A program made the position numbers and the translations under genes. A DNA stretch of 64,000 bases. Source: Octopus vulgaris. Taxonomy: Eukaryota. Location: assembly GCA_951406725.2 (NCBI GenBank), contig OX597827.1:29264001-29328000 (forward strand), in the 5' to 3' direction. Position 1 is the stretch's first letter; each line of letters starts with the position of its first letter. The notes beneath the pieces are model-generated. The model saw only the letters and a program-made list of their open reading frames with translations. It ran no database searches and was not told the DNA's origin. Positions 1 to 61,624 of the stretch are shown here, in pieces.

Positions 1-300
1 CTAGCTAATCTATTTTTAGTTTTCTGTACGATTCTGTTCGGGGTGTTCTGTAGGTAAAACAGACAATCGTCACGATATAGGCCACCACCGATGTCCGGGA
101 ATTGGTCGGATAATTCATAGAGAATATAGATTCCGACCAAATCGGCAATCTGCGCGCTATCTGAACTACCCATAGGTATATCGAACTCGTTGGGAGTATC
201 CTTACGAACCCATAACTTATCTTCAAACTGTATAAAGGATTTTCTGGCGACTAGAATTATATCAATTTCTTCTCTTGTGAGGCCTGCCTTATTATGTGCA
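1..300 (-). mobile_element. Penelope-like element reverse transcriptase fragment (runs off window start)
   Basis: Manual minus-strand translation: EEIDIILVARKSFIQFEDKLWVRKDTPNEFDIPMGSSDSAQIADLVGIYILYEL...FPDIGGGLYRDDCLF. This contains PLE-type FDxxMGS and YRDD motifs. Confidence 0.85.
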
Positions 301-319
301 TGCCACATAATATATATAT

Positions 320-1990
320 ACCGGAGTAAACACATAAATGTGAAACAAGGTGAGAAAAAGAGTAATTCAAATACCAGACGTAGAGTAATATGCTTCATTT
401 AAAGGCAGCAGAAATTTAACAAAAGCTGTTACTCGGAGTTTCACGTTCTCGTTCGTCGGATAGTTTAGAACGGAGATGACAATTCTATCAAGACTAGTAT
501 AAACGTTACACCTTTAAAAATGAATTTGTTTGATTGGTCCTTTCAAATAAGGGTCATATGCGAGCGATAAGCAAAAATAAACAAAACAAATAAATGAGTT
601 CAATATAAAATTATAAAAATCGCGGAAAAACCTTAAATCGAAGATTTGATTAAATACATATTGTCATTAATTATGTAGAAAATATAATTCGATTAATACA
701 ATTAATACATAAAAATTTAAATTAAAATATATTAAAATATTTCACAACAGTACATACTCATACTAAAATACACAGATAGATGTCCGCAGACCACATACAT
801 ATACAGACATATAAATGCAAAACGAAAATATACACACAAATACATGTACACACATGCATACGCAATCTTGCTCACATGCAAAAATCACTCGGTGTATACA
901 TATAGACTATAAGCAAAATGCAGGGAAGTGGAAGAGACGATCTTGTAAGCAACAGAAAGCTAAAGACGTGAGTAAGGGAGGGGGAGGGGCGTAAAGTTAC
1001 AGAGAGAGAGAAAAACGAAAGAAAGGAAGAAAGAAAAAAGAAAAAGAAAAAAGAAAAAGTCTGACTATACGTAACGGATGATCATAAGATGAAATTACGT
1101 ATACATGTGTATATAAGCATGTAAGCCGTAAATACATATATACGAACACATATAAATATATAGAGACAAGTATGCAAACACACAAGTCCAACTGAATACA
1201 TACACATATATTCATGTATGTATGTGCATAAGTACAAACATACACTCTCACTTACACATATACATAGACGCATGCTTACAAATACATATGCATGCCAATA
1301 CAAATATTCACAGAAAAAAGTCTAGGGTCTGCGATTATTATTTTTTTTAATTGCTGAGTGCATAATAATAAAATGTTTAGATAAAAGACATCCAAAATAT
1401 AACACCCTATATTGGATTATCTATAAATTAAATTACCAAAGTGAGTTTATACAATATAAAATAGTAAAATAAACTAAGTCGAAGGTTTTTTCTTAAGAAA
1501 TATATCGAAATATAATCAAAAGATATACAAAACTTTGCGTTGCGGAATAGAACCTGCATAATGTGAAACAAATCCAACAGTGTGATCAAAAGCTAGTCCA
1601 AGAATCAAAAGATCAAAAAGACAAAATATACGCTATCCATATGGGATATTGATGTTCGACATTTTAAATTTGGTTGCGTGCCTGCATGAGTTCAAAAGTT
1701 TGCTTCTTTGATTCAAAGAATTAATGTCTTGGAATAATATGAAATATTTCTCTAATAAACAGAGATCGCATTTAAAATTCTTCCTATGTGCCCCGTGCCT
1801 GTATGGTGCCGCTCTATCTAGAATATTCCATGACACGTTGAAAGGTCGGGTTTCTTTTTCTTTTAGTTCCCAGACATATTTCGCCAGGCTGGTCTTCGTC
1901 TTATTTTCTGGGTATCGAAAGTAATTGTTGTGCGAATAAAATCGGGTTTTAAAAGAATTTTCAGAAGCCCCTGTATAAATCTTATATGAT
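320..1990 (-). mobile_element. Penelope-like element 3' part: GIY-YIG endonuclease C-terminus (~1990-1633), long 3' UTR, pseudo-LTR with hammerhead, ending at (TA)n
   Basis: Minus translation YTGASENSFKTRFYSHNNYFRYPENKTKTSLAKYVWELKEK...CDLCLLEKYFI...LNQRSKLLNSCRH. Hammerhead-like motif at 425-463. Confidence 0.8.
425..463 (-). ncRNA. Minimal type I hammerhead ribozyme motif (U4C core variant)
   Basis: Minus strand CTAT-CCGACGA-ACG agaa CGT-GAAACTCCGAGTA-ACAG: core, stem II, near-palindromic stem III, GUA site, stem I with one mismatch. Confidence 0.55.
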
Positions 1991-1999
1991 GTAAAGTGA

Positions 2000-3174
2000 T
2001 GTAAAGTTATTACCCCCGAAAACGGTTATGGTAAATATGAAAAAGAAGACTATTACATAGAAGGTGCACTCAGTGGAGTGTAGGAGGGTGGAGCAGATGA
2101 AGATGGAAAAAGTAGAAAAAGCTCTCAAGGGGCTTTCGAAGGAAGTAAGATATATAGCAAAAGGAAGCGGATATGGGACGGTGTTTGTCCAGTTTAGGAC
2201 AGAAGAGGAGGCAAAGAGGCTGGCAAGTACAACTGTAAAAACTGAGGAACTAGTACTTCTACCCTCCTATCTTGGAAGAAAGAATTCTAAGGTGAGGGTA
2301 GAAGGAATTCCACCTGACATAAAAGTGGCTTGGGTTGCGGCAGCCGTCCTCGTTGGAAGTGAGGAGGTGACTGTCCTCCAAGCCACAGAGACAGAGGAAG
2401 GAAGCTACAAAGGAAAAATACTGGAAATGATCATACAAGCGGAGGCGAAGGAGCTGGAAAATTTGGCGGAAACGGTGACGATGGGAGAAATAGTATTGAG
2501 AGTATGGGTAGAAGGCAGAACCCCGCGGTGCTTTAAATGTGGCCAAAAAGGCCATATTAGAGCACACTGCCCCCTACAGAAGAAAAAGATAGAGACGAAG
2601 GAGAAAAAAGAGGATGAAAACAAAGACGGACGAAAGGAGGAAGAATGGATAGTAGCAGAGTGTAGAAGGAATAAGAGGAAGAAAAGAAAGAACACTGAGT
2701 GTGATATGGTACCCCAGTCCAACTCCATCCCACCCAAGACAATTCAGACCCACCCGCCCCATACAGACACCAGACCCAACCACTCCCTTTCCCCACAAGA
2801 AAAAAGAAAAAGAAAAAACAGCAGACACCACAGAATTTAGAAAACCCCTCACCCGGTGAAAAAGGTTGCGAAAGAATGTTGTCATTAAGCGAGAGTGAGA
2901 GTGGAAACAGAAGGACTAGACCAGAGATTAGAGAAGAATTCAGACTCAAAGGCAGCAAGTGGTGTTGCTCAGAGTGGGGTGAGTAGCACACTCTTCATAT
3001 TTTCATTTTCAGATATCATGCATGTTATCATAAACTTAATTTATTTTCTCACTTTCATTTTCATGTCACTCACAGTATCATTTTATTTTTACATATTCTT
3101 AATTCTTATATGTCTCAACATGTTTTTGTAGTGTCCCCTCTGTGTAATGCCTTTATGGCAAAATAATTGAAATA
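2000..3174 (+). mobile_element. ORF1-only non-LTR retroposon, element A (5' truncated; HAL1-like, Tx1/L1-type ORF1)
   Basis: Zinc-knuckle ORF followed by a T-rich 3' UTR, TGCC-tttat-GGCA hairpin (3148-3160) and GAAATAA. No endonuclease or RT. Abuts SINE-A-like target sequence. Confidence 0.75.
2028..2840 (+). pseudogene. Tx1/L1-like ORF1 protein: two RRM-like segments, CCHC zinc knuckle, basic tail
   Basis: CFKCGQKGHIRAHC; VRYIAKGSGYGTVFVQF; KVRVEGIPP. ATG at 2028 is in frame but followed by a TAG at 2058-2060. Track ORF is 2064..2840. Confidence 0.75.
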
Positions 3175-3190
3175 AAGTAGCTCGCTAACC

Positions 3191-5184
3191 TCTGACGTGT
3201 TCAGACGTGTTTTTTGGCTGCTCCAGTTGTCACGTGTTTCAGCGTGAAATGTTGAACTTTTGAGACTCGACTACAGGTATGTGTTTAATGTTTTTTGGGG
3301 GGCTTAGGGAAGTTTATTGCTTTGCATTTAATATTTTTTAGCAAGTAATAGACTACACTTTGCTCCGGACATTTTCCTGCCTGTGGTCGAGTATAAAGAC
3401 TCACTTTGCAGTGAGAATTGTGTTTTTTGAGGAGGCGTAGCCCCTCCTCAAAAATTATTTGCTTTCGAGGAGATTACCAACGACAAACAAGGACTGTTTT
3501 CATTGGGATTTGCCAGGAGGCACCAAAGACTGTTGAACGTTTGGCCAGGAGTACGTTTTCGGCCAAAATAATTAATTCCTTTGCTGAATTTGAACTCTTC
3601 TTCAAGCTATCATTATTTTTAATGAACTTTTTTTGAACTTCTATTTTCATTTCTTCCCTTCTGTTGTGTTTTCCATTCTCCTTTTTGTGACCTATTTTAT
3701 TTTTTGTTTGAACTGTTTTTGAACTTTACGTTATGGCAAAGGAACTTATTGTGTGGGACCTAGCACCTCCCAAAAAATATTTAAAAGAGCTGGAAAGAAA
3801 GACCGTGGTGTTGAGGACATACTCGAAGTCGCTCGACACCATAGCAGTCTTCCCAAAGGCTACTATTTTAAACGAGCTGGCAGACTACATGCCAGCCGTT
3901 AAATATATCGCTCGGGGAGTTAAATACGCAACGGTTTGGTTGCTATTTGACTCCCCCGAAGCAGCTTGCGAATTTGCAAGCAAGCCTATCGAGGGCGAAG
4001 AAATATTGTTTCTCCCCAATTATATGGGAGAAAAACTGTTGAGAGCTTGGATCTGCGGATTACCACCAGGCATTGAGCCAGAGTGGATAGAGGACTCTAT
4101 CCGCCGGGGCTTGGATGGTAGCAGTTCCAAGCTACTGAACGTAAAAGTGCAGCCTGTGGCTAACTGGGAGGGGTCAAAAGCTGTTTTGACCCTATGGACC
4201 CAGTCAGCCAAAAGTCTGGTTTTACCGGACTTTTTGAGGATGGCCGGGTACAGGTATCCGGTGATGTTTGAGGGACGCCCCCCACCCAAGTGTCACCTGT
4301 GCCTGGAGACCGGCCATATTAAGAAGAACTGCCCCAAGGACAAGAGTAGGATCCTGGAGCAGTTGATGTTGGAGCCTCTCCCAGCCCCCCCCCCCCCCCC
4401 CAATGGAGGGAGAGAAACAAAGTGAGGAAGCGGTGACTTCCTCAACAAAAAGAAAAGTGGGGAGCAATGGCGACCCACCAAAAGAACCGGAAGCTGCGGG
4501 AGAAAAAGAGGACCCGGTGTGCACAACACCTAAACGTAAAAAGGTAAAAAGAAAAAGAAAAAGAGAAACGGGACGCCGCCGGCGGATTGTAACACGCAGA
4601 CGGCGTCTCCCATGTCTCCTCCGGCAGTTGTGTGGCCGGAGAAACAATCTGTGATATTCTTCTACAAAGAAGGAATATTAGAGAATGAAATAGGTAAAAT
4701 GAGGAGGAGAGACCAATGGGAGGGACTTCGGTCCTGCACGGAGGATGCCGAGTGGCCTTCGCAGCTGGCTGCGGAGGTCCTACTGGATAAAGATCTTTGC
4801 AGGATCACGAATTCTTTCCCGGGGGACTCCTTTCGAGTTTTGCCTGTATGGGGCCTGACGAAGAACGATTGCCTCAATGAGGCAAGAGCGCTCATCGGCC
4901 GGGTAACATGAACCTGTTTTTGTATTATATTGAGAAGGAGGTTTATTGCCTCTTGTAAAATTTTTGAATTTGTAATTTGTAAAATTTGGAATTGTTGTGA
5001 AACTTTGAAACTTTTGTAAAATTTTTTGGAAAAAAAAGAACAATGTATTAGAGAAGCGAAAGTCGGCGGGCGCTTTCGTCTTCTCCCATCATCATCTTCG
5101 TCCATCACCATCATTCATTAATGTCTTTTGTCCAGCCCGCAGCTACTCTGTGTACTGCCCTAGTGGCAGATTATATATGAAATA
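3191..5184 (+). mobile_element. ORF1-only non-LTR retroposon, element B (apparently full length, ~2.0 kb)
   Basis: About 540-nt 5' UTR, ORF1, 3' UTR, TGCC-ctagt-GGCA hairpin (5156-5168), GAAATAA. Flanked by AAGTAGCTCGCTA at 3175-3187 and 5185-5197. Confidence 0.8.
3733..4911 (+). pseudogene. ORF1 protein (~390 aa): two RRM-like segments, CCHC knuckle, basic linker, conserved C-terminal domain; frameshifted at the poly-C run (~4385-4401) and the A-rich run (~4545-4565)
   Basis: CHLCLETGHIKKNC. Track ORFs 3733..4425, 4403..4654 and 4612..4911 are colinear with copy C, where the knuckle and the MEGE segment are in frame. Confidence 0.75.
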
Positions 5185-5418
5185 AAGTAGCTCGCTATTT
5201 ATTCATTTATTTATATATATTATACAAAATATTTCAAATCAACCCGGAGTTTCTACCTTTACAAACTGGGTATTACATCCTTATTACTTGTGTGATTTTT
5301 TTGCTGCCCTGGTAACTGTTTTTGTTTACTTTCTTCTTCCCAATATATCATTCCCTGGAAATCTGAATCGCTATTACATTTATCCAACACTCATCGAATT
5401 TCATATGTTCACGCTCAT

Positions 5419-11004: not shown

Positions 11005-14000
11005 TCTAGTTTCAGCTTATGAGCAGTAGTCATGCTGAGGCACCACCATTTGGTGTAGCTACATGATTTTACTTCACTAATTTCTTTTAGAAATTGACAT
11101 TTGTTTTCTTTATTACCCACTAGGGGCAACAATTAGAAATTGACAATTTGTGCATGAAAGACTTTGATGCGGCTGCCTTTATCTGCACTTCCTACTGTGA
11201 AGTTGGTTCATCTGGGACACTTGACAGTAAGAGGTCCAGTTTCGTTTTAAAATTTCTTACGTTCATCCCATGCAGGTCTCTCAAATCCTTCGCGACGATA
11301 TTGAAAAGCTGTGATCCCCTAATGCCCAGGCTGTTGCAGTATCTTGTCCTCTATCTTAATGGCAAATTTGGTGTCCTTAGCACAATGCAGTGGCACCCTG
11401 TTCTAGTATTAGTGTAACTCTCGATACCAAAGTTTGGGACAAGTCCCTCCAGGATCTTACAGATGTATATTATGGCATATCTTTCTCGCCTACGCTCTAA
11501 GAAATAGAGTCTTAATCTCGTGGGTTTTCCCCAGTAACTTATAAGCTACATAGAGGCTATCTTCTTGTAGCGACGTTGGATTGCCTCATGTTCTGCAATT
11601 AATTTGACACTGATTTGTGACAATAGCTGGGAGCAATAGTCAATGTGGCTTAGGACAAGTGTCCTCCAGAGGACCATCAGAGTTTCCCGATCCCTTGTTC
11701 TAAAAGTTCTAAGAATCCATCCAGTCAGCCGCTTGCATTTCATTTCCAGCTTAGCAACACGCACATAGAAGGATGCATCATTACTCATGTAAATGCCCAG
11801 GTTTCGCACTGACTGTATCTCCAGGTCCAGTGTATTTAATTGGTAATACATTTAATTTTGCATGCTGATAGCCAAAGGCTTGAACCTTTTCAGCATTAAA
11901 CTACATGCTATTCTTATCAGGTCACTTGCATATTTCATACAAGTCAGATTGCAGGTGTATAGTGTCTTCAAGGTTATGTATCACCTGTGAAACTTTTGGA
12001 ACATCTGCGTAATTTGTGATCGTGGGGCTCTATGAGGCTGAAGGGCCACGTCTGAGAAGGCCATTATGAACAGTAGTAGTCCCAAAATAGTGCCTTGCGG
12101 ATCACCGCTTACTATTTGCGTGTCATTGGAGGTAGCGCATGACTGTTATCCTTCAGAAAGTCATGCATCTATTCTCTTAATTTCTCGACTATGCCGAGAT
12201 CATGCAGTTTGTGATATATCATTCCATGATCTGACTTTATCGAAAGCCTTTGCAAAGTCGGGATATATCACTTTCACATTTGATTGGTTGAGCAGCTGTT
12301 TCAACACCCAGTCATAATGTTGTAAGAGTTGAGCCAGGCAGCTTCTTCCTGGTCGGAAACCATGTTGGATGTTAGTCATTTTACTCAAGGAAGGTGATCA
12401 ATTTTCTTCTGATATTCATTCCATGACTTTGCTGATGTGTGAGGTCAGAGAGATAGGTCTGTAGTTTTTGGCCTCTGCTTTGCTACCTCCTTAATGAATA
12501 GGGAATATCTTACCCTCCTCCAGCTTGCTTGGAAATTTTGCAGTTGCAAGTAGGCTTTGAAAGAGGAACTCAGTGGTTTTGCTAGGACTCGCTTACATGC
12601 TTTTAGAAGGATTGTTGGGAATCCATCAGGGCCAGTATCTGAGCTCGGGTTCATTTCATCTAGATCCCTTATTACATCGTCTTTTTTATATTGATATAAT
12701 CAATCATCATTGCCTCTGTTTTTATATCTGCAGCAGTAAAAATGTCAGCGGGATTGCTGACCTGCAAGTGTCTTAGTTGTGGAGTGAAAACACCTTTGAA
12801 TTGTTCATTTAGTGTTTTACTTATCCTCATTGGGTTTCTTGTGAGTGAACCATATTTTTTGAGGAGTGGACCTATCCTGCGCTGCACTGAGGTTGTTTCT
12901 TTGGTAAAGTTGTAGAAGGTTCTGGGGTTAGATTTTATATTGTCTATAGTCCAGGCTTTTTTCTACTCTTTCTTTTTCATGAGAGAGTTGCAGATTATTT
13001 TTCAATCTCCAGCAGTTGTATTTTCGGGCTGGACTTTTCACTGCTTTCAGTTTGTTTGTTTAAGCGATTTTAATATTTTGTACGCTGTCTCATAAGAATT
13101 TTCCTCATCCTAGGGATTTTGTTCTTGTGTACAGTAGCCTTTCTCCCTGGGACACATTTGTAGCTTGCATTACAGACATGAATTATTGAAGTTTCATGTC
13201 GATGTCCGGTGAGGAGAAACATTTAGACCAGTTTTGTTTGAGGATCTCTTTCTCTATTTGTTTCCAGTTTGCTTTATGGAAGTGCAATCTGGAAAGATTT
13301 TGAGAATTTCTTGTGCGCTGCATGTCCATGGTTTCCTTTGGCCCGTCCATGATCAGCTCTATCATGTTGTGATCAGAGAGTAGCGTCGGTGTCACTTTCA
13401 CATTATGGATGAGATCCATATTATTTGTGAAGCAGAGATCCAGTATACTATCTGCCCTGGTTGGTTGGAGTACTATTTGTTCTATGTACAAAGTGATGAG
13501 GTTCAGGAGGGACTTCACTTGTCCTTGTACGCATCACGCTATTCATGTGAGAGAAAGGCCCTCAGGCCATCCGATATTGGGCAGGTGAAGTCTCCCATAA
13601 CAAGTACACTTATGTGTTGTTCTAATGTGACTAGAACTTCTATTTTTGTAAGGCAGTCTTCAAACTTGTCTGCATGATTTGGAGCATGTGGAGGGGCGAT
13701 ATGTAGTACATATAATTACACCGAGTTGTCTTTATTAGTGTGTCACATACTGAATTTGAGTGTGACAAAAGGGCCTGGGGTTTGAGGTCATCGCTGATAT
13801 ACACGGCAATTCCATCATGACTACTTTCTTTTCTGTCAGTCTGTAATACAACATACTGTGGTATGTGTATTTCTGCATTTATTATATCTGGTTTCAGGTG
13901 TGTTTCCGTAAGAGCTATGCATAAGGCGTGATTGCAAGCAACAAGGTCTCTCAGGAAAGGAATATTTGTCCTGTTACTAAGTGTTAACAATTCTCTGATG

Positions 14001-17428: not shown

Positions 17429-17840
17429 TTCTTTCTTTCTTTCTTTTACTTGTTTCAGTCATTTTGACTGCGGCCATGCTGGAGCACCGCCTTTTAGTCG
17501 AGCAACTCGACCCCGGGACTCATTCTTTTTGTAAGCCCAGTACTTATTCTATCGGTCTCTTTTTGCCGAACCGCTAAGTGACGGGGACGTAAACACACCA
17601 GCATCGGTTGTCAAGCAATGCTAGGGGAACAAACACAGACACACAAACATACACACATACATATATATACATATATACGACAGGCTTCTTTCAGTTTCCG
17701 TCTACCAAATCCACTCACAAGGCATTGGTCGGCCCGGGGCTATAGCAGAAGACACTTGCCCAAGATGCCACGCAGTGGGACAGAACCCGGAACCATGTGG
17801 TTGGTTAGCAAGCTACTTACCACACAGCCACCCCTGCGCC
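17429..17840 (-). mobile_element. SINE-A, full length, well preserved
   Basis: Head GGCGCAGGGGTGGCTGTGTGGTAAGTAGCTTGCTAACC; tail GGCGGTGCTCCAGCATGGCCGCAGTCAAAATGACTGAAACAAG. Confidence 0.9.
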
Positions 17841-18502: not shown

Positions 18503-21500
18503 TTCTAGTTTCAGCTCAGAGCTGCGGCCATGCTGATGCACCGCCGTTTTGTGCTACACATTTATTGCGACGAACCTCGTCTAATATGTGGCACTTGGTG
18601 AATAATGGAGTTTGATACAGCTACTCTCATTTGCACCTCTTGCCGTGAGGTAGGTTCATCTGGGACTCTTGACAGGAAGATGTCCAGCTTTGATTTAAAA
18701 ACTGCTACATCTACTTTGTGCAGGTTCCTCAGACTCTTTGGGAGAATATTAAAAAGCTGTGGGCCCTTGAAACCCAGGCTGTTGCAGAAGCTGGTCCTGA
18801 AGAGTGATGGCATTGCTGGGATCTTTGGCACTATGCAGTGCCGTCCCGTTCTAGCATTGGTGTAGTTTACAATGCCAAAATTTGGCACAATTCCTTCCAG
18901 GATCTTCCAGACATATATTACTGCATACCTCTCCCGTCTTCTCTCCAGGGAGTAGAGTCTTAGCTGTTTCAACCTTTCCCAGTAGCTGAGCTGTTGCAAA
19001 GAGAGATCTTCTTTGTGAATCTTCTCTGGATTGCTTCAAGGTCCGCTGTTAATTTTACACTGGTGGGTGACCATAGATGTGAGCAGTAATCCAGGCGACT
19101 GAGGAGAATGTCCGCCAGAGGACCATCATGGTTTCCTTATCTCTGGTTCTGAATGTTCTTAGGATCCACCCAGCCAGTCGTTTGAACTTTGTCGCCATCC
19201 TGGTAATGTGCACTTGGAAAGAGGTATCATCACTCATGTCGATACCCAGGTCCCTCACAGATTTATGCTCTGGGATTGAAATTCCATGTGGACCGGTGTA
19301 TCCTGTAAGTTTAATATTCAGTTTTGGATGCTGGTAGCGCAGGGCCTGGAATTTTTCAGCATTAAACTGCATATTATTATCCTCAGCCCATCTGTAGATT
19401 GAGTCCAACTCCTGCTGCAGGTGTGCAACATCGCTGGGGTTCTGTATTTTCTGCGAGACTTTCGTATCGTCTGCTTAGCTGGCCAGAGTGGCTATCCGGG
19501 CATTTGAGGGCATATCTGAGAGGGCCACTATAAAAAGCAGTGGTCCCAAGACAGTGCCCTGTGGAACACCGCTCACTATTTGTGTGTTCATAGAGGTGGC
19601 TCCATTAACCACTACTACCTGACTCCTATCTTTCAGGATGTCATGCAACCACACTCCAAGTTTTCCAGCTATGCCGAGGTCACGTAGTTTGTGGCATATC
19701 ATACCATGATCCACCTTGTCAAAAGCTTTTGCAAAATCAAGGTAGATTACGTCCACATTTGTTTTGTTGAGTAACTGCCTCAACACCCAGTCATAATGCT
19801 GTAAGAGCTGGGTCAGGCAGCTCCTACCTGGTAGAAAATCATGCTGGGTATTACTCAGCAAGTTATTTTCCTCAAGGAATGCGATTAGTTTCTTTCTGAC
19901 TATCCGTTCCATGACTTTGCTGATGTGTGAAGTCAGAGAGATAGGCCTATAGTTTTTGGCATCTGCTCTACTTCCCCCTCTATGTATTGGGCATATTATT
20001 CCCTCCTTCAGCTTGCTTGGCAGTTTGCCATTCGCAAGAAAGCTCTGAAAGAGAATCTTGAGGGGTTTTACAGGGCATGCTTACACGCTTTGAGGATGAT
20101 GGCTGGGAAACCGTCTAGACCAGCAGCTGAGTTTGTGTCCACTTCATCTATGGCTAGTAGGACATCTTTTTCGCTAATGTCAATACATTCTATTCTAACC
20201 GCCTCGCTGGTTATAGGTGAGGCGGCAAAGAGGTCCACTGGTTCGTTCACTTGTCTGTGTTCCAACGGGGTGGTAAAGACACTTTTGAACTGGTCATTCA
20301 GCATCTCACTGATCATAGTTGGGCTGTCTGTGAGGAAGCCATCCTTTTGGAGGAGGGGTCCTATCTTGTAGTGCACTGAGACTGTTTCTTTCGCGTAATG
20401 AAAGAAGGCCTTTGGATTTGATTTAATGTGTTTTATAACCCAGGCTTCTTTGTCTGCTTTCTCCTTCACATAGGATTGTTGCAGCCTTTTTTAGATCTCT
20501 ATCAGTGTTGTTTTTAGGCGGAACGTTTCGCTACTTTTGGGATGTTGGTTGAGACGATTTGCAACCTTCGTCCGTCGTCTCATGAGGATCTTCCTGTCTC
20601 TTGGAATCTTGCTCCTATTTGTTTTGGCCTTGTGCTCTGGGACATATTTCTAGCATACGGCTTGTACAGAAGACATGAAACATTCTAGTTTCATGTCAAT
20701 GTCTGGTGTGGAGAGACATTCCGGCCAGTCCTCTCTGAGGATTTCTTTTTGGATCGATTTCCAATCTGCTTTGTGGAAGTTCAGATTAGAGAGATTTCGG
20801 GTGCTTCCTTTAAGCTGTATGTCTCTGGTTACTTTCGGCCCAAACATAGACAGCTCTATTATGTTGTGATCCGAAACTGATGTCGGTGTCACTTTCACAT
20901 CATGAATGATGTCCACATTGTTCGTGAAGCAGAGATCCAGAATGTTATTCGCCCTAGTCGGCTTGAGTACAACTTGCTCCATGAATAAGGCATTGGTGAG
21001 GTTGAGCAGGGACTCCACCTGTACTTGCTTTCAATGATTCATTCCTGAGAGTATGTGACCTTCGGGCCATTTGACGTTGGGGAAGTTGAAATCACCCATA
21101 AGAAATATGGTCACGTGGTGTTCCAGATTCATGAGGATTTCTTTAATTCTTGTGAGGCAATCTTCAAACTTGCCTATGTGATTTGGGGCATCCGGTGGGC
21201 AATATGTATTGCATATGACTATATTATGTTGTCTTATGTATACAATTAAGGTGTCACATACCGAATTTGAGTATGTCATCAAGACCTGGGGTGTGAGGTC
21301 ATCTCGGATGTATACAGCAACTCCACCATAGCTCCGTTCCCTTCTGTCTGTTCGCAGTATGGCATAGTTTGGTATGTGCACTTCTGCGTCCTCTATATCA
21401 AGGTTGAGGTGAGTTTCCACAAGTGCTATGCATAGGGCTTGATTGCATGCAGTAAGATCTCTCAGGAAAGAAATTTCGTTTCTATTTTGATGCAACAGAG

Positions 21501-22180
21501 CCCCAATATTTAGTAAAAGTATTGGGGTGACGGCTGTGCAGGCGTTAGGGAGGCCATCCCGTGTCTGTTTACTGTGGTGGTCTTGCATAGTGGTGAGCAG
21601 GGTTCCTTCTCTGTGCTTGGTGTAGCCAGGTTAGCTGCCGGACAATTCTTTCCGCCATGCATAAAAAAGACTCTTGCTCAGCTGCTGCGTTGCGCAGAAC
21701 ATCTGAGGAGCGCACTTCGTTTTTGAAAGTTTTCCTGGGAGACATTTCTTGTGTTCCCTCGGTAAAGTTTTTCTCTTTGAGTCCCCTGAAGTTCTGGCGG
21801 GGTGTCGGGTGGGCGAACCGGCAGTTTTTGCCGTCCTCACCATGCCAACATTTGCCTCGCATGTAGAACTTACAGGCTCTTCGGTGCCTTCCAGATTTCT
21901 TATTTCCTGGGTGGCATTGGATCCTCCATGGGGTTCTCTGCTGTTTGAGTGGTGGGTTGGGGTTTCAGCTTTGGTTGTTTTGCCTTTTCCCTCCTTATTT
22001 TTGTTTTCGGTCCTTCCTTTTTACTTCTGTTTTTCTAATTTTTCTAATTTTTCATTTCTTCGTAGGACCACTAGTACATAGGGGGCTTCCGGTTTCTGCT
22101 CCCTTGGCTCCCCCTATCCTTCACTACTTGGTCGTTCACCGGGGTAGGTGATCCATTTTCCTGAGGAACCCCTGGATCAC
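18503..22180 (-). mobile_element. CR1-like LINE, near full length but inactivated: CCCH-finger ORF1 remnant plus APE-RT ORF2
   Basis: CKFYMRGKCWHGEDGKNCRFAH; ALVETHL, GDFNFP, YLDFAKAFDKVDH, SGVPQGTVLGPLLF, YADD mutated to *ADD, LYSLERRRERY. 3' tail followed by an A run. Confidence 0.92.
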
Positions 22181-45944: not shown

Positions 45945-46152
45945 ATGTTGATTCGTTAGTTACTGCACGCATTTTTTTCTCTCCTTCTTTCTGTGTTTTT
46001 TTTTCTCTCTGTGTATCTTTCTGTTGAAGAGCGTAGGCTCGAAACGTTAAAGACTTGTTTTATTTATATTTCCTGAGCGCCATACTAATACAATTGTTTG
46101 TTTGTTTTCCACCTGCCTTCGTCTTTTGTCTATTTTCATAAAGCTTCCCGTT
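45945..46152 (+). mobile_element. PLE pseudo-LTR with hammerhead motif (46016-46053), ending at (TA)n
   Basis: TCTTT-CTGTTGA-A-GAGC gtag GCTC-GAAACGTT-AAAGA; near-identical copy at 51376-51583. Confidence 0.7.
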
Positions 46153-46249
46153 ATATATATATATATATATACATAATTAGAAATAGCAGTCGGAGACTGT
46201 TTATTTCTATTTTCTACATATGGGACTCAACATACGACGCATGGTAAAA

Positions 46250-47595
46250 TTTTGGAGGGAATATTTACGAATTCAATTGTCTTCCCGAAAGCCACAATTT
46301 TGAAAGAGCTGGCAGAATACATGCCAGCCATTAAATTTATTTCACGGGGAGTCAAATATGCAACGGTCTGGTTGCTATTTGACTCCCTCCAAGAGGCTTG
46401 CGAATCTGCAAAACGGCTCCTGGAGGGCAAAGAAATTATGGTTCTTCCCAATTATTGTGGGAAGAACTTAATGAGCCCGAGTGGATAGAGGATTCTATCC
46501 GCCGGGGTCTGGGTGGTAACAGTACCAAGCTGCTCAACGTGAAAATTTTGCCTGCGGCTGATTGGGAGGGGTCAAAAGCTATTTTGACCCCAAGTATCAC
46601 CTGTGCCTGGAGACCGGCCACATCAAGAAAAACTTCCCCAAGGACCAAAATAGGATCCTGGAGCAGTTAATAGAGGAATCACTCCCTGGTCCCTCAATGG
46701 AGGGAGAGACGGAGGAGGATGACGAGGAGGTTTCCACCTCCTCGAAAAAATGAAAGCGAAAGGTGGGCAACAGTGGCTGCCCACCGAAGAACCCGAGGGC
46801 TGTGGGAGAAAAGGAGGACCTGCTGGACACAGCAAAGGAACACCATCCTCCCGCGGCCCAAGGGAAAAAGAAAAGAAAAAAGAAAAACGGGACATTGCCG
46901 GCGGTTTGAAACACGCTGCCGGCATGTCCCGATTCTCCTTCGGTGGGTTTGCCGCTGGAGGAAGCATTTGTGGTCCTCTTCCACAAGGGAGGAACTTTGC
47001 AGAATGAAATTTAAAAAATTGAAAGGAAGGGCCGGTGGGAGGGGCTTCTGTCCTGCACGGAGGACCCTGAGTGGCCTTCGCAGGTGGCTGCGGAGGTCTT
47101 ATGGGATAACGATCTGTGCAGGATAATGAATACCTTCCCAGCGGACTCCTTAAGATATATGGCCAAGTGGTCCGGCTTGGAACCGAATAGATGCTTCGAT
47201 GAAGCGAGGAGCCTGGTCGGACAGAAAACTTGAAGTATTGGACGTTTGGACTCAAAAAGAGTCTACAAAATGTAAAATAAATGTGTGAGGATTATTGCCT
47301 CGCGTGTGTGATTTTTTTTTTTTCAATATTGAACTATGTACGAGGTTTATAGCCTCATTGTGCCTCAAAAAGAAAAAATAAGAACTCTGAACTATGTAAG
47401 AGGTTTATCGCCTCGTTGTGTTTTTTATAAAATAAAAAAAGAACAATGTTTTAGAGAAGCGAAAGTCGGCGGGCGCTTTTCGTCTTCTCCCATCCTTATC
47501 ATCCTTGCATCATTATCATTCATCCCATTAATGTCTGTGTCCAGCCCGCAAACTTCTCCCTGTGCGCTGCCCTTGCGGCAAATTAAATGAAATAA
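46250..47595 (+). mobile_element. ORF1-only retroposon, element C (family B copy; 5' truncated, internally deleted)
   Basis: VFPKATILKELAEYMPAIKFISRGVKYATVWLLFDS, HLCLETGHIKKN. Same 3' UTR as B, with TGCC-cttgc-GGCA (47568-47580) and GAAATAA. Confidence 0.88.
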
Positions 47596-47748
47596 GGAAG
47601 ATTGTTTCCCATTCAGGTTACCGGGTTCAGTCCCACAGCGTGGCATCTTCGGAAAATGTCTTCTACTATAGCCTTGGACCAACCGAAGCCTTGTGAATGG
47701 ATTCGGCAGACGGAAACTGAAAGAAGCCTGTCGTGTATGTGTGTGTGT

Positions 47749-47799
<51 letters not shown>

Positions 47800-48019
47800 C
47801 GTGTGTATGTACATGTTTGTGCCTCTGTGTTTGTTCCCCCACCATCGCTTGACACCGATCTTGTGTTTACGTTCCCGTAAGTTAGCGGTTCGGAAAACGA
47901 GCCCGATAGTAAGTGTTAGGCTTACAAAGAATTCGTCCTGGGGTCGATTTGTCCGACTAAAGGCGGTGCTCCAGCATGGCCGCAGTCAAATGACTGAAGC
48001 AAGTAAAAGAATAAAAGAA
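47594..48019 (+). mobile_element. SINE-A lacking only its first ~22 nt (3' flank of element C)
   Basis: AAGGAAGATTGTTTCCC...CCGGGTTCAGTCCCACAGCGTGGC through the tail GGCGGTGCTCCAGCATGGCCGCAG. Confidence 0.88.
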
Positions 48020-48021
48020 TA

Positions 48022-51375: not shown

Positions 51376-51581
51376 ATGTTGATTCGTTAGTTACTGCACG
51401 CATTTTTTTTCTCTCCTTCTTTCTGTGTTTTTTTTCTCTCTGTGTATCTTTCTGTTGAAGAGCGTAGGCTCGAAACGTTAAAGACTTGTTTTATTTATAT
51501 TTCCTGAGCGCCATACTAATACAATTGTTTGTTTGTTTCCCACCTGCCTTCGTCTTTTGTCTATTTTCATAAAGCTTCCCG

Positions 51582-51583
<2 letters not shown>
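51376..51583 (+). mobile_element. PLE pseudo-LTR with hammerhead motif (51447-51484), second copy
   Basis: Nearly identical to 45945-46152; followed by (TA)n. Confidence 0.75.
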
Positions 51584-51998
<415 letters not shown>

Positions 51999-55858: not shown

Positions 55859-56231
55859 ACATTATTTACATTTGACGGATACTTCTCCTCATCTTGTTTG
55901 ATGTTAACACAACGTTTCGGTTGATATACCCTCCAGCCTTCATTAGGTGTCTTGGGGAAATTTCGAACCTGGGTTCTCATTCCTAAGGTATTTTTCGAAA
56001 AATACCTTAGGAATGAGAATTCAGGTTCGAAATTTCCCCAAGACACCTGTTCGAAAAATACTTTAGGAATGAGAACCCAGGTTCGAAATTTCTCCAAGAC
56101 ACCTAATGAAGACTGGAGGGTATATCAACCGAAACGTTGTGTTAATAACAAACAAGATGAGGACAAATATCCGTCAAATGTAAATAATGTAAATAATGTA
56201 CATAATTCTTCGTCCCTTAGATGTAGAACTG
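55859..56231. mobile_element. Palindromic PLE pseudo-LTR element with two hammerhead motifs and 13-bp TSD
   Basis: Inverted arms around TTCGAA (~55997); TSD TATTAGAGAATAT at 55846-55858 and 56232-56244; hammerhead motifs at 55907-55950(-) and 56099-56142(+). Confidence 0.85.
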
Positions 56232-59685: not shown

Positions 59686-60964
59686 CGAGGGACGTTCAAT
59701 AAGTAATGCCTCGGACCCACTTGCAGTTGTTTGATCTAGCATGTGCAATCATTTATATCTCTATAGAGTAAGTGACAAATTACAGCTCTGAATTAATTGT
59801 GGTTTCTGATTTACAGGTGTTTGAACTGAGTCAAGTGTGAAATGGAGCCTGTTGAGTGTCGAGCAGTGATCCGGTTTTTGTATTTGAAAGGACGCACACT
59901 ACGGGAGACTTTTGATGAAATGAAAGTAACTTATGGTGATGATGCCCCATCATATGACCTTGTAAAACACTGGCATCGTGAATTCAAACATGGTCGGAAC
60001 TCTGTGGAAACAGCTCCCAGATCTGGTCGCCCCTTCTGCCATTGATGAGGCATCTGTCCGTCAAGTTGAGGCTGCCATTTTGGAAGATCGACGCATAATT
60101 ATTCGCCAAATAACCCATGAGGTCAAGATTAGTACCGGGTCTGTGGAAACTATCATTCATGACCATTTGCATATGCAAAAGGTGTCTGCCAGATGGATTC
60201 CCAGGTTGCTCACGCCTTTCCAGAAGCAAGAACGCGTCGAGTGCTCGAGGGTGAATTTGGAGATGTGCCAAGAAGATGAGTCAAAATTTTTCAAAAGACT
60301 GATTACACAGGATGAAACCTGGGTCCATCACGATGATCCAAAGACCAAATCCCAGTTAATGCAGTGGAAGCACCGTGACTCACCCCCTCCAAAGAAGGCA
60401 AGGGTGCAGCCCTCCGCTGGCAAGGTCATGCTCACAGTCTTCTGGGACCAGGACGGAGTAGTGATGACATATTTCCTGGCAAAGGGTACCACAATTACAG
60501 GAGCCTATTATGCTTCACTTTTGAGGAAATTAAGAGAAGTTATCAAAATCAAGAGGCGGGGCAAGATCAGCAAAGGCATCCTCCTCCTGCAGGACAACGC
60601 TCCGGTCCACAACTCGCTTGTCGCCAGATCAGAAGCACAGGCGTATGGCTATGAACTCCTCCCCATCCCCCCTACTTTCCTGACCTTGCACCCTCTGATT
60701 TTCACCTCTTCCCAATCATGAAGTTGTTTTTGAAAGGAAAGCGTTTCCCAGATGATGCAGCCTTGATTTCTGAAGTCACGTTGAGGTTGGAGGACCAAGC
60801 TGGGTTCTTCTACAAAAACGGTCTCCATAGCCGCATCAAACGATGGGAGAAATGCGTAACTCTGGGTGGTTCCTATGTAGAAAAAGCCTAATAACTGTGC
60901 CAAGTTTCGTTGCTCTACTGCTATGGGAAGTGGGTCAGGGGCATTACTTATTGAACGCCCCTCG
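59686..60964 (+). mobile_element. Mariner (Tc1/mariner) transposon, full length
   Basis: TIRs CGAGGG(A/G)CGTTCAATAAGTAATGCC; TA target duplication at 59684-85 and 60965-66; 1279 bp. Confidence 0.95.
59842..60891 (+). pseudogene. Mariner transposase with two frameshifts (~60035, ~60665)
   Basis: RSGRP, WIPRLL, TQDETW, LQDNAPVH, and PDLAPSDFHLF in a shifted frame. Confidence 0.92.
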
Positions 60965-61624
60965 TACCTTAAGTAACTCTTATCGTAGGGTTTGTTTGTT
61001 TTCAAGCTCCGTTCCGGTTAATTTCTATTTCCAAATCTATGTATTTGAAACAAAGATATTTACAAATGTTTACTTCAATTTGTCCTTGGTGAATTTTATT
61101 TCACGTGTATTTATATAGTTACTGGAGAAAAATGCATTTGATCATATATTATTTAGGAGTGAGGGATAGAAATCTAGAAATATTGATGGTAGCAGCAGCT
61201 ATTATTGTTGTTTTTTCTCCACTCCAAGCCTAATCCATCAGAAGTTTGATCACAAGCTTTCCAATCATGAGAGAATTTAAGACTAGACTGTCCAATATGT
61301 CCCTTAGAGTGCCACTTGGAAGAAAATTTGACTGTTACTTTGCTGTGGTAAGCAACCAAGTAGGGGCACCCTCGTTGGCTAGCTAAGGTACTAGAAGAGA
61401 ACATAGACAAAGAGATTATCCAGCTGTTGTAAGACGGACCTTAAGTGAATCAGACGAATTCAACTCTTGACATATGAGCAATGATCCCATAAACAGACAC
61501 ACACACACACTCAGCACACACAGACACACTTACACACATTATTTAGCAACATTGCTTAAAGAACAGGGCAGTTTCATGACTTTGCTCATAACGGAGTTTA
61601 TGACGTTTCTAATATCACCTTTGA

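What the first reader, a model, noticed from the sequence alone, without database searches (positions are those of the whole stretch)
2000..5197. ORF1-only retroposons that insert site-specifically into the tRNA head of a SINE
Seen in sequence: three elements (A 2000-3174, B 3191-5184, C 46250-47595) end in TGCC-N5-GGCA...TGAAATAA, and each is followed by the same position of SINE-A. After A comes AAGTAGCTCGCTAACC, a 15/16 match to AAGTAGCTTGCTAACC in the SINE-A at 17429-17840. After B comes AAGTAGCTCGCTA. After C comes an entire SINE-A missing only the ~22 nt up to the end of its A box. B is therefore bracketed by a 13-16-bp target duplication and stacked head-to-tail with A. Established: Tx1-clade LINEs with APE endonucleases can be sequence-specific (U2, 5S, tRNA arrays, other transposons), and HAL1 elements are ORF1-only L1 derivatives. 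Inference: these are non-autonomous ORF1-encoding elements that borrow a site-specific Tx1 ORF2. They would use an abundant SINE as a safe haven, splitting its A box from its B box and regenerating the target for tandem stacking. I do not know a published description of this, but could not check.
Basis: partly seen in the sequence, partly recalled or inferred. Interest (0 to 1): 0.9.

Follow-up and report, generated by a model that had tools for sequence, protein, structure and literature searches.

The report
Retrotransposon guild nesting inside a SINE
In this octopus-like genome a family of full-length jumping genes and several stripped-down partners that keep only their RNA-packaging gene insert at one exact spot inside another, very abundant jumping element and pile up there head to tail, so one genome parasite serves as the habitat of others.

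Summary
58 of 60 best genome hits to the A and B tails are followed by the same SINE 9-mer (background 0.3%). The inferred helper exists: a 5.44 kb L1/Tx1-group LINE (ORF1 + APE-RT ORF2). All 23 full-length copies examined have the SINE body downstream; 21 have the 22-nt SINE head upstream and 2 another unit. 100 of 108 of its exact tails are followed by the target. 5'-truncated copies also sit between head and body, so the SINE is a target, not cargo. ORF1-only families (about 1.5 and 2.0-2.3 kb) keep ORF1 under purifying selection (dN/dS mostly 0.10-0.26). Only about 0.9% of exact targets are occupied (397 vs 45,634), yet 20 of 60 tails abut another unit; arrays reach 9 to 16+ units. Corrections: the true duplication is mostly 10 nt or less, the rest of the 5' '16-mer' is donor-carried, and the window's own copies have lost their SINE heads. 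Closest precedents: Tx1-Mar/SINEU, HAL1, HeT-A arrays. I found no paper describing a SINE-head target; Repbase and Dfam were not checkable.

The parts
1994..3174 (+). Element A: 5'-truncated ORF1-only retroposon (A-type, full length about 1.5 kb); open frame 2061-2840 with RRM-like region and CCHC knuckle; ends TGCC-N5-GGCA..TGAAATA, no poly(A)
   Evidence: 92% to a full-length A from its position ~309; no ORF2 hit in A-type units
3175..3190 (+). Target copy AAGTAGCTCGCTAACC between A and B (SINE positions 23-38)
3191..5184 (+). Element B: full-length ORF1-only retroposon (B-type, 2.0 kb); ORF1 from ATG 3733, in two frames here (3712-4425, 4540-4911), uninterrupted about 395-410 aa in relatives
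   Evidence: 93.7% to L061
5185..5197 (+). 13-nt remnant of the 3' target copy; SINE body lost
5198..5321 (.). Internal fragment of an unrelated abundant repeat where the SINE body should be
46279..47594 (+). Element C: old, degraded B-type ORF1-only copy (72-82% to B), 5' end and SINE head absent
47595..48021 (+). Degenerate target (AAGAAGC-type SINE variant) plus headless SINE body
17429..17840 (-). Intact, unoccupied SINE-A copy (22-nt head with A box, target, B box)

Best explanation
A lineage of L1/Tx1-group non-LTR retrotransposons has an APE endonuclease that recognises the tRNA-like head of the genome's dominant SINE. SHOWN: insertions fall at GGCGCAGGAGTGGCTGTGTGGT^AAGWAGCTTGCT, just 3' of the A box, in the SINE's orientation in all copies examined, with no poly(A). 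At least three autonomous families (ORF2 57-68% identical) and at least two ORF1-only lineages share a short TGCC-N5-GGCA hairpin + TGAAATA(AA) 3' end and this target. ORF1 of the ORF1-only lineages (two RRM folds + CCHC knuckle) is under purifying selection. INFERRED from established TPRT: ORF2 nicks the bottom strand at the GGT^AAG boundary, binds the shared 3' hairpin and reverse-transcribes the RNA; the top strand is cut or resected about 7-14 nt downstream. Full-length RNAs start inside the duplicated target, so the cDNA end anneals to the overhang and writes the donor's version of positions ~11-16 at the 5' junction. ORF1-only elements make their own ORF1 RNP in cis and borrow ORF2 in trans. 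Separating A box from B box by 1.5-5.4 kb should silence that SINE copy, one of more than 45,000, so the cost to the host is small. Arrays probably arise from a mix of sequential insertion, local duplication and read-through co-transposition of multimers.
For: Target after tail: 58 of 60 BLAST hits; 100 of 108 exact autonomous tails; 51 of 71 exact tails of one older B-type variant. Autonomous copies: 23 of 23 with SINE body 3', 21 with head and 2 with another tail 5'; median identity 98.9%; both ORFs open in L181 and L186. Domains: Exo_endo_phos, RVT_1, zf-RVT; best solved relative human L1 ORF2p E=8e-67 vs R2 6e-20. A private variant is duplicated on both sides in L194 and a SINE-subfamily variant on both sides of truncated L079. 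Six 5'-truncated copies in a listing-order sample of 30 occupied sites lie directly behind a SINE head. 53 of 62 extracted units hit ORF1 but not ORF2, 4 hit ORF2, 5 hit neither (units were chosen via A/B tails). dN/dS mostly 0.10-0.26 between B-type subfamilies at dS 0.4-2.0. B-type ORF1s form a 100/100 clade holding no autonomous ORF1 and including an Octopus sinensis protein. Model: tandem RRM matches.
Against: No experiment shows that ORF2 cuts this site or moves the ORF1-only RNAs. 2 of 60 tail hits lack the clean target (L017 unrelated flank, L057 deleted target), and 8 of 108 and 20 of 71 exact tails are not followed by the exact 7-mer; I did not read those flanks. In the 30-site sample 8 had no head within the stretch fetched and 3 were ambiguous. 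I could not search genome-wide for B- or A-type ORF1 followed by an ORF2. Autonomous families 2 and 3 are known from one copy each, inside one array.
Confidence: 0.88

Rival explanations
1. The SINE-like sequence is a fixed part of the element (a captured 3' end or 5' promoter) that moves with it, so insertion is not site-specific.
For: Full-length copies do carry a donor-derived piece of the target (about positions 11-16) at their 5' end. The window's A-B pair has no SINE head or body around it.
Against: 5'-truncated copies with different breakpoints all begin right behind a SINE head (L079, L082, L092, L099, L100, L104, L106). Near-identical autonomous copies are followed by different SINE subfamily variants. 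A private variant is duplicated on both sides in L194.
Confidence: 0.02
2. The ORF1-only units are dead, internally deleted copies of autonomous elements, and the selection signal was inherited from their autonomous parents.
For: A-type ORF1 groups among autonomous ORF1s in an unresolved part of the tree. Many copies have frameshifts. Some 5' UTRs are shared between autonomous and ORF1-only units.
Against: A- and B-type units recur at uniform lengths on many contigs with no ORF2 remnant. The B clade is 100/100, lacks autonomous members in my sample, has at least four subfamilies at dS up to 2 with dN/dS mostly 0.10-0.26, and carries its own C-terminal region.
Confidence: 0.06
3. Arrays arise mainly by co-transposition of read-through multimers and by local DNA duplication, not by new monomers inserting at the regenerated target. 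This replaces only the stacking step of the best explanation.
For: Stacking is far above the 1-2% expected from 0.9% occupancy: 20 of 60 tail hits, in 16 distinct arrays. The A2-then-D order recurs on C3, C7 and C10, and those three D copies form a clade (0.984). Four D units in the C10 array differ by 0.5-1.0%, against 1.5-2.3% from the other D copies. Autonomous copies tend to be the last unit (2 of 22 followed by another unit vs 20 of 60; p=0.046).
Against: The C7 array mixes at least three autonomous families and several ORF1-only types in an order not seen elsewhere. Of three A2 copies followed by D, only two are sisters (0.933). The position bias is weak.
Confidence: 0.45
4. The endonuclease evolved on genuine tRNA genes; the SINE is a look-alike that now absorbs almost all insertions.
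For: The site lies in the tRNA-like head right after the A box. The targeting clade is old (ORF2 57-68% identical, sister to an Argonauta protein). Dada transposons use tRNA A-box sites (PMC3706591, passages).
Against: Every readable downstream flank is SINE body or another unit, never a tRNA gene. ARAGORN of 31 heads as tRNA at default settings. Young and old families differ in SINE variant used (0 of 100 vs 19 of 51 AAGAAGC), which suggests adaptation to the SINE.
Confidence: 0.2

Closest known systems
Tx1-Mar and SINEU of crocodilians (Kojima 2015, PMC4494074; passages and section 15 read)
   Same: Tx1-group LINEs plus non-autonomous partners share one site inside another abundant transposon; expected 16-nt TSD; tandem insertions sandwiching a TSD.
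   Different: Target is a Mariner DNA transposon, not a SINE head. Partners are short non-coding snRNA-derived SINEs with poly(A), not ORF1-coding elements. Preference is 13-90%. No long mixed arrays in the passages I read.
Keno, Dewa, Mutsu, Kibi/Koshi, Tx1L (as listed in PMC4494074 and PMC3706591 passages; primary papers not seen)
   Same: Sequence-specific non-LTR elements in multicopy RNA genes, tRNA spacers, microsatellites or another transposon.
   Different: None of the listed targets is the Pol III head of a SINE; no ORF1-only partners are mentioned.
HAL1 (half-L1) (PMC5753468 passage; Bao and Jurka 2010 not held)
   Same: Non-autonomous, encodes only ORF1, arose more than once.
   Different: Mammalian L1 derivative with no sequence-specific target reported in the passage; different ORF1 type and a poly(A) tail (recalled).
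Drosophila telomeric HeT-A/TART/TAHRE arrays (bioRxiv 10.1101/2025.06.09.658640, passages)
   Same: Mixed head-to-tail arrays of ORF1-only and ORF1+ORF2 elements; about 40% of families ORF1-only; ORF1-only lineages give rise to new ones.
   Different: Jockey clade, added to chromosome ends; here L1/Tx1 group, interstitial, defined by a sequence target with a duplication.
L1-Tx1 families in an octopus repeat library (Bonar et al. 2026, PMC13282606; parts 1-2 of 3 and supplement search)
   Same: 13 recently active L1-Tx1 families, 421 insertions, mean 5,436 bp, close to the 5.44 kb autonomous element, so a relative may already be in that library (inference).
   Different: No mention of target specificity, nesting or ORF1-only partners in the text read; the Zenodo library was not seen.

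Membership tests
L1 group (L1/Tx1) non-LTR retrotransposon: autonomous element | ORF2 with N-terminal APE endonuclease, RT and C-terminal zinc motif | tested here: met
   Exo_endo_phos 5e-12, RVT_1 1e-27, zf-RVT 1e-8 in a 1133-aa ORF
L1 group (L1/Tx1) non-LTR retrotransposon: autonomous element | ORF2 closer to L1 than to RLE clades | tested here: met
   Human L1 ORF2p E=8e-67 over residues 6-870; R2 6e-20. CR1/RTE/Jockey references are not in that comparison.
Tx1 clade | RT groups with named Tx1 elements (Tx1L, Keno, Dewa) in a phylogeny | not testable with these tools
   No named Tx1 reference came; the tree has unnamed neighbours only
Tx1 clade | ORF1 with RRM and CCHC knuckle rather than vertebrate L1 ORF1 (feature recalled) | tested here: met
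   zf-CCHC just under the curated cut-off in P0020 and B, just over it in A; tandem RRM folds, best Z 9.7, rmsd 2.7, 83 aligned
Tx1 clade | Frequent sequence-specific insertion (PMC4494074) | tested here: met
   100 of 108 and 58 of 60
HAL1-like non-autonomous LINE: A, B, C | Encodes ORF1 only | tested here: met
   53 of 62 units hit ORF1 without ORF2
HAL1-like non-autonomous LINE: A, B, C | ORF1 maintained by selection | tested here: met
   dN/dS mostly 0.10-0.26 between B-type subfamilies, leaving out three C10 units whose cores start off-frame
HAL1 proper | Derived from mammalian L1 | tested here: not met
   ORF1 is homologous to the local autonomous elements' ORF1; no L1 ORF1 Pfam hit
HAL1-like non-autonomous LINE: A, B, C | Mobilised in trans by partner ORF2 | not testable with these tools
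   Inferred from shared 3' hairpin, target and junction structure
tRNA-derived SINE (target) | Head with A and B boxes and tRNA-like fold | tested here: inconclusive
   A-box-like TGGCTGTGTGG and B-box-like GGTTCAGTCC seen directly (box consensus recalled); ARAGORN 0 of 31 at default, mixed-strand calls only at -ps80; identity with octopus OK/OR1/OR2 not tested

The most novel reading that the evidence does not exclude
An old, octopod-wide hyperparasite community. The LINE endonuclease follows the turnover of SINE subfamilies: the young autonomous family uses AAGTAGC in 100 of 100 exact junctions, while an older ORF1-only variant used AAGAAGC in 19 of 51, and 15 of the first 100 empty targets listed are AAGAAGC. 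ORF1-only lineages have diversified under selection without an RT. Units travel as read-through multimers, with an autonomous element at the 3' end carrying upstream passengers in cis, building interstitial HeT-A-like arrays that silence the SINE copies they occupy.
Probability: 0.35. Interest if true: 0.87.

Novelty: new variant of a known kind. Interest (0 to 1): 0.72.

Why it matters
It adds a target class (the Pol III head of a SINE) to site-specific LINEs and joins three features known separately: Tx1-type targeting, ORF1-only dependants and HeT-A-like arrays. With young, apparently intact autonomous copies and partners that differ only in ORF1 and UTRs, two open questions become testable: why a non-autonomous element keeps ORF1, and how an APE endonuclease changes specificity as its target drifts. 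A 93%-specific APE element is also a candidate scaffold for targeted RNA-templated insertion. For cephalopod genomics, these units will be mis-annotated as SINE chimeras or host genes (one O. sinensis gene model is a B-type ORF1).

Tried and rejected
Rfam scan of the window: the 150 of 184 hits shown were miRNA models below their gathering scores, nearly all on simple repeats, with no tRNA hit. Homologue search for longer proteins: weak, unnamed hits; no Tx1 label. Sequencing runs: no RNA holder listed; the contigs laid were collapsed repeats and showed neither an empty site nor expression, so they are no evidence either way. An unbiased 40-site sample with 6 kb flanks could not be fetched, so family shares rest on the first 30 of 397 sites, 13 of them extended by 1.1 kb and 6 read in longer stretches. 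My first position test (0 of 20 autonomous copies followed by another unit, p=0.002) was overstated: I had skipped L160 and L161, tandem autonomous copies 5,455 bp apart on C9; counting them as stacked (from spacing, junctions not read) gives 2 of 22, p=0.046. The automatic head call mis-hit an internal ORF2 site for L094, L095 and L101; their junctions were taken. A B-box-like motif plus T-run near the 5' end of B-type units could restore a short Pol III unit, but A, D and autonomous types lack it, so it is not a general mechanism. The C-terminal region of B-type ORF1 (about residues 305-392) was not folded alone; its fold is untested. Papers not held: PMC2923044, PMC85248. Earlier scan findings: none. 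Paper searches that turned up no description of a SINE-head target or of Tx1 ORF1-only partners: (listings; seven papers opened). Repbase, Repbase Reports, Dfam and subscription journals were not searchable.
Full report
Observation. A ends at 3174 and is followed by AAGTAGCTCGCTAACC. B runs 3191-5184 and is followed by 13 nt of the same sequence. C ends at 47594 and is followed by a degenerate target and a headless SINE. A and B encode a CCHC knuckle protein, and Pfam finds no RT in their frames. In the window the context is damaged. A lacks about 300 nt of its 5' end and abuts a minus-strand fragment that I read as Penelope-like from recalled motifs (no Pfam hit). No SINE head lies within 20 kb upstream, and an internal piece of another repeat replaces the SINE body after B. 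The host is octopus-like by inference: the closest named proteins are from Octopus sinensis and Argonauta hians.

Targeting. I read the 3' flanks of the best 30 of 40 B-tail hits and the best 30 of 41 A-tail hits. 58 of 60 begin with the target 9-mer within 2 mismatches; the background is 0.27%. 36 of 60 continue into the SINE body by pattern. By eye, 20 continue into the 5' end of another unit (16 distinct arrays), 1 is a degenerate SINE body, 2 are cut short after the target, and 1 (L017) is off-target. Genome-wide, 397 sites match tail end + headless SINE exactly, against 45,634 exact empty targets: about 0.9% occupancy. Full-length ORF1-only copies lie between the 22-nt head and the body. 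In the first 30 of the 397 sites, 11 are full-length or near-full-length behind a head, 2 lie behind another tail, 6 are 5'-truncated behind a head, 8 show no head in the stretch fetched, and 3 are ambiguous. Truncated copies with unrelated breakpoints behind an intact head rule out a co-transposed SINE.

The helper. 9 of those 30 sites hit ORF2 and 13 hit ORF1 without ORF2. The commonest autonomous family is 5.44 kb. All 23 full-length copies read have the SINE body 3'; 21 have the head 5' and 2 another tail; median identity is 98.9%, and L181 and L186 have both ORFs open (20 of the 23 came from the top, leaving out L148, L160, L161). ORF2 (1133 aa) has APE, RT and zf-RVT domains and is closest to human L1 ORF2p among solved structures. 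100 of 108 exact tails of this family are followed by AAGWAGC, and 51 of 71 for one older B-type tail variant. Two more autonomous families, 57-68% identical in ORF2, occur in the C7 array. The three form a clade (0.954) next to an Argonauta protein. I could not place them against named Tx1 elements.

Junction structure. Truncated copies repeat 0, 2, 7, 9, 10 and 10 nt of the target, and 14 nt in L079, where an A-run may extend the match. L194 has a private change at position 8 on both sides. In all 5 autonomous insertions whose SINE is a TTACC, TTTACC or TTACG variant, the 5' copy still ends CTAACC, in three cases with a 1-nt insertion near position 10. So the true duplication is mostly about 10 nt or less and the distal part comes with the donor RNA. 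I infer that transcription starts inside the duplicated target and that the cDNA end anneals to the overhang. Doubled remnants at some 5' ends (target followed by a second, older-type target piece) fit this.

ORF1-only families. Of 62 units cut out between junctions, 53 hit ORF1 but not ORF2, 4 hit ORF2 and 5 hit neither (chosen through A/B tails). A-types are about 1.5 kb and B-types 2.0-2.3 kb. All ORF1s align with the autonomous ORF1s. A model of a B-type ORF1 (mean pLDDT 68.6, 11 sequences) shows two RRM folds, the knuckle region, a low-confidence linker and a C-terminal alpha/beta region of untested fold. Among 25 stop-free cores, dN/dS between B-type subfamilies is mostly 0.10-0.26 at dS 0.4-2.0, leaving out three C10 units that start off-frame; A-type pairs give 0.10-0.43 apart from one near-identical pair at 0.89. 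B-type ORF1s form a 100/100 clade with a long stem, no autonomous member in my sample, and an O. sinensis protein inside; A-type is a separate group (94/95). This points to at least two lasting ORF1-only lineages.

Arrays. Head + 9 units + body over 17 kb on C10; head + 4 + body on C7 and on C16; head + at least 16 units over more than 42 kb on C7. With 0.9% occupancy, independent insertion predicts 1-2% stacking, not a third. Evidence for multimer travel or local duplication is suggestive only. A2-then-D recurs on three contigs and those D copies form a clade (0.984); four C10 D units are each other's closest relatives; autonomous copies tend to be last (2 of 22 vs 20 of 60, p=0.046). Against it, only two of three A2 copies before D are sisters, and the C7 array is a one-off mixture.

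Target drift. All 100 exact junctions of the young autonomous family are AAGTAGC. 15 of the first 100 empty targets listed are AAGAAGC (p=3e-5), and so are 19 of 51 junctions of the older B-type variant. This may reflect an endonuclease tracking SINE subfamilies; differences in age or chromatin of the targets could also produce it.

Comparison and verdict. It works like Tx1-Mar/SINEU (shared site in another transposon, tandem insertion; PMC4494074, passages and section 15), like HAL1 (ORF1 only; PMC5753468, passage) and like Drosophila telomeric arrays (bioRxiv 10.1101/2025.06.09.658640, passages). It is an L1-group element; Tx1 membership is likely but untested by phylogeny; it is not HAL1 proper. 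A 2026 octopus repeat annotation lists active L1-Tx1 families of matching mean length without any mention of targeting (PMC13282606, parts 1-2 of 3 and supplement search). Ten paper searches found no SINE-head target or Tx1 ORF1-only partner, but Repbase Reports, Dfam and subscription papers were out of reach, and I put the chance of an existing database note at about 25%. Verdict: real, new variant of a known kind, interest 0.72.

Noticed in passing
window 3-398 and 1633-1993 (-): RT-like and GIY-YIG-like fragments that look Penelope-like (motifs recalled; no Pfam hit); the second abuts A's truncated 5' end.
   Followed up: partly
window 11141-13963 and 18589-21964 (-): Two degraded copies (70% identical) of another APE-RT LINE, with RVT_1 and endonuclease hits and an upstream CCCH-like stretch; unrelated to the SINE-targeting family.
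   Followed up: no
window 59966-61017: Mariner-type transposase frame (Transposase_1).
   Followed up: no
window 55956-56092: Long near-perfect inverted repeat, possibly a MITE or hairpin (seen through spurious miRNA hits).
   Followed up: no
G000:C9:2664555-2679058: Tandem autonomous copies about 5,455 bp apart; junctions not read.
   Followed up: partly
L118/L073 (C7 array): Autonomous family 2 shares its 5' end with neighbouring B-type ORF1-only units, and the family-1 5' start recurs on other units, suggesting 5' UTR or promoter swapping.
   Followed up: partly
5' ends of A- and D-type units (e.g. L119, L128): GCGCATGCG-like motifs directly after the target copy, and CACGTG/TGACGT in B-type units, resembling NRF1, E-box and CRE sites (names recalled): possible internal Pol II promoters.
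   Followed up: no
P0141: An O. sinensis gene model ('uncharacterized protein') is a B-type ORF1, 63% identical: probably a transposon annotated as a host gene.
   Followed up: no
P0020 residues 55-250: Atlas look-alikes include arthropod CCHC proteins and a ZCCHC3 RNA-binding-domain cluster (score 0.90); a lead only.
   Followed up: no
window 45945-46175 and 51376-51606: 98%-identical 232-nt repeat pair, one just upstream of C.
   Followed up: no
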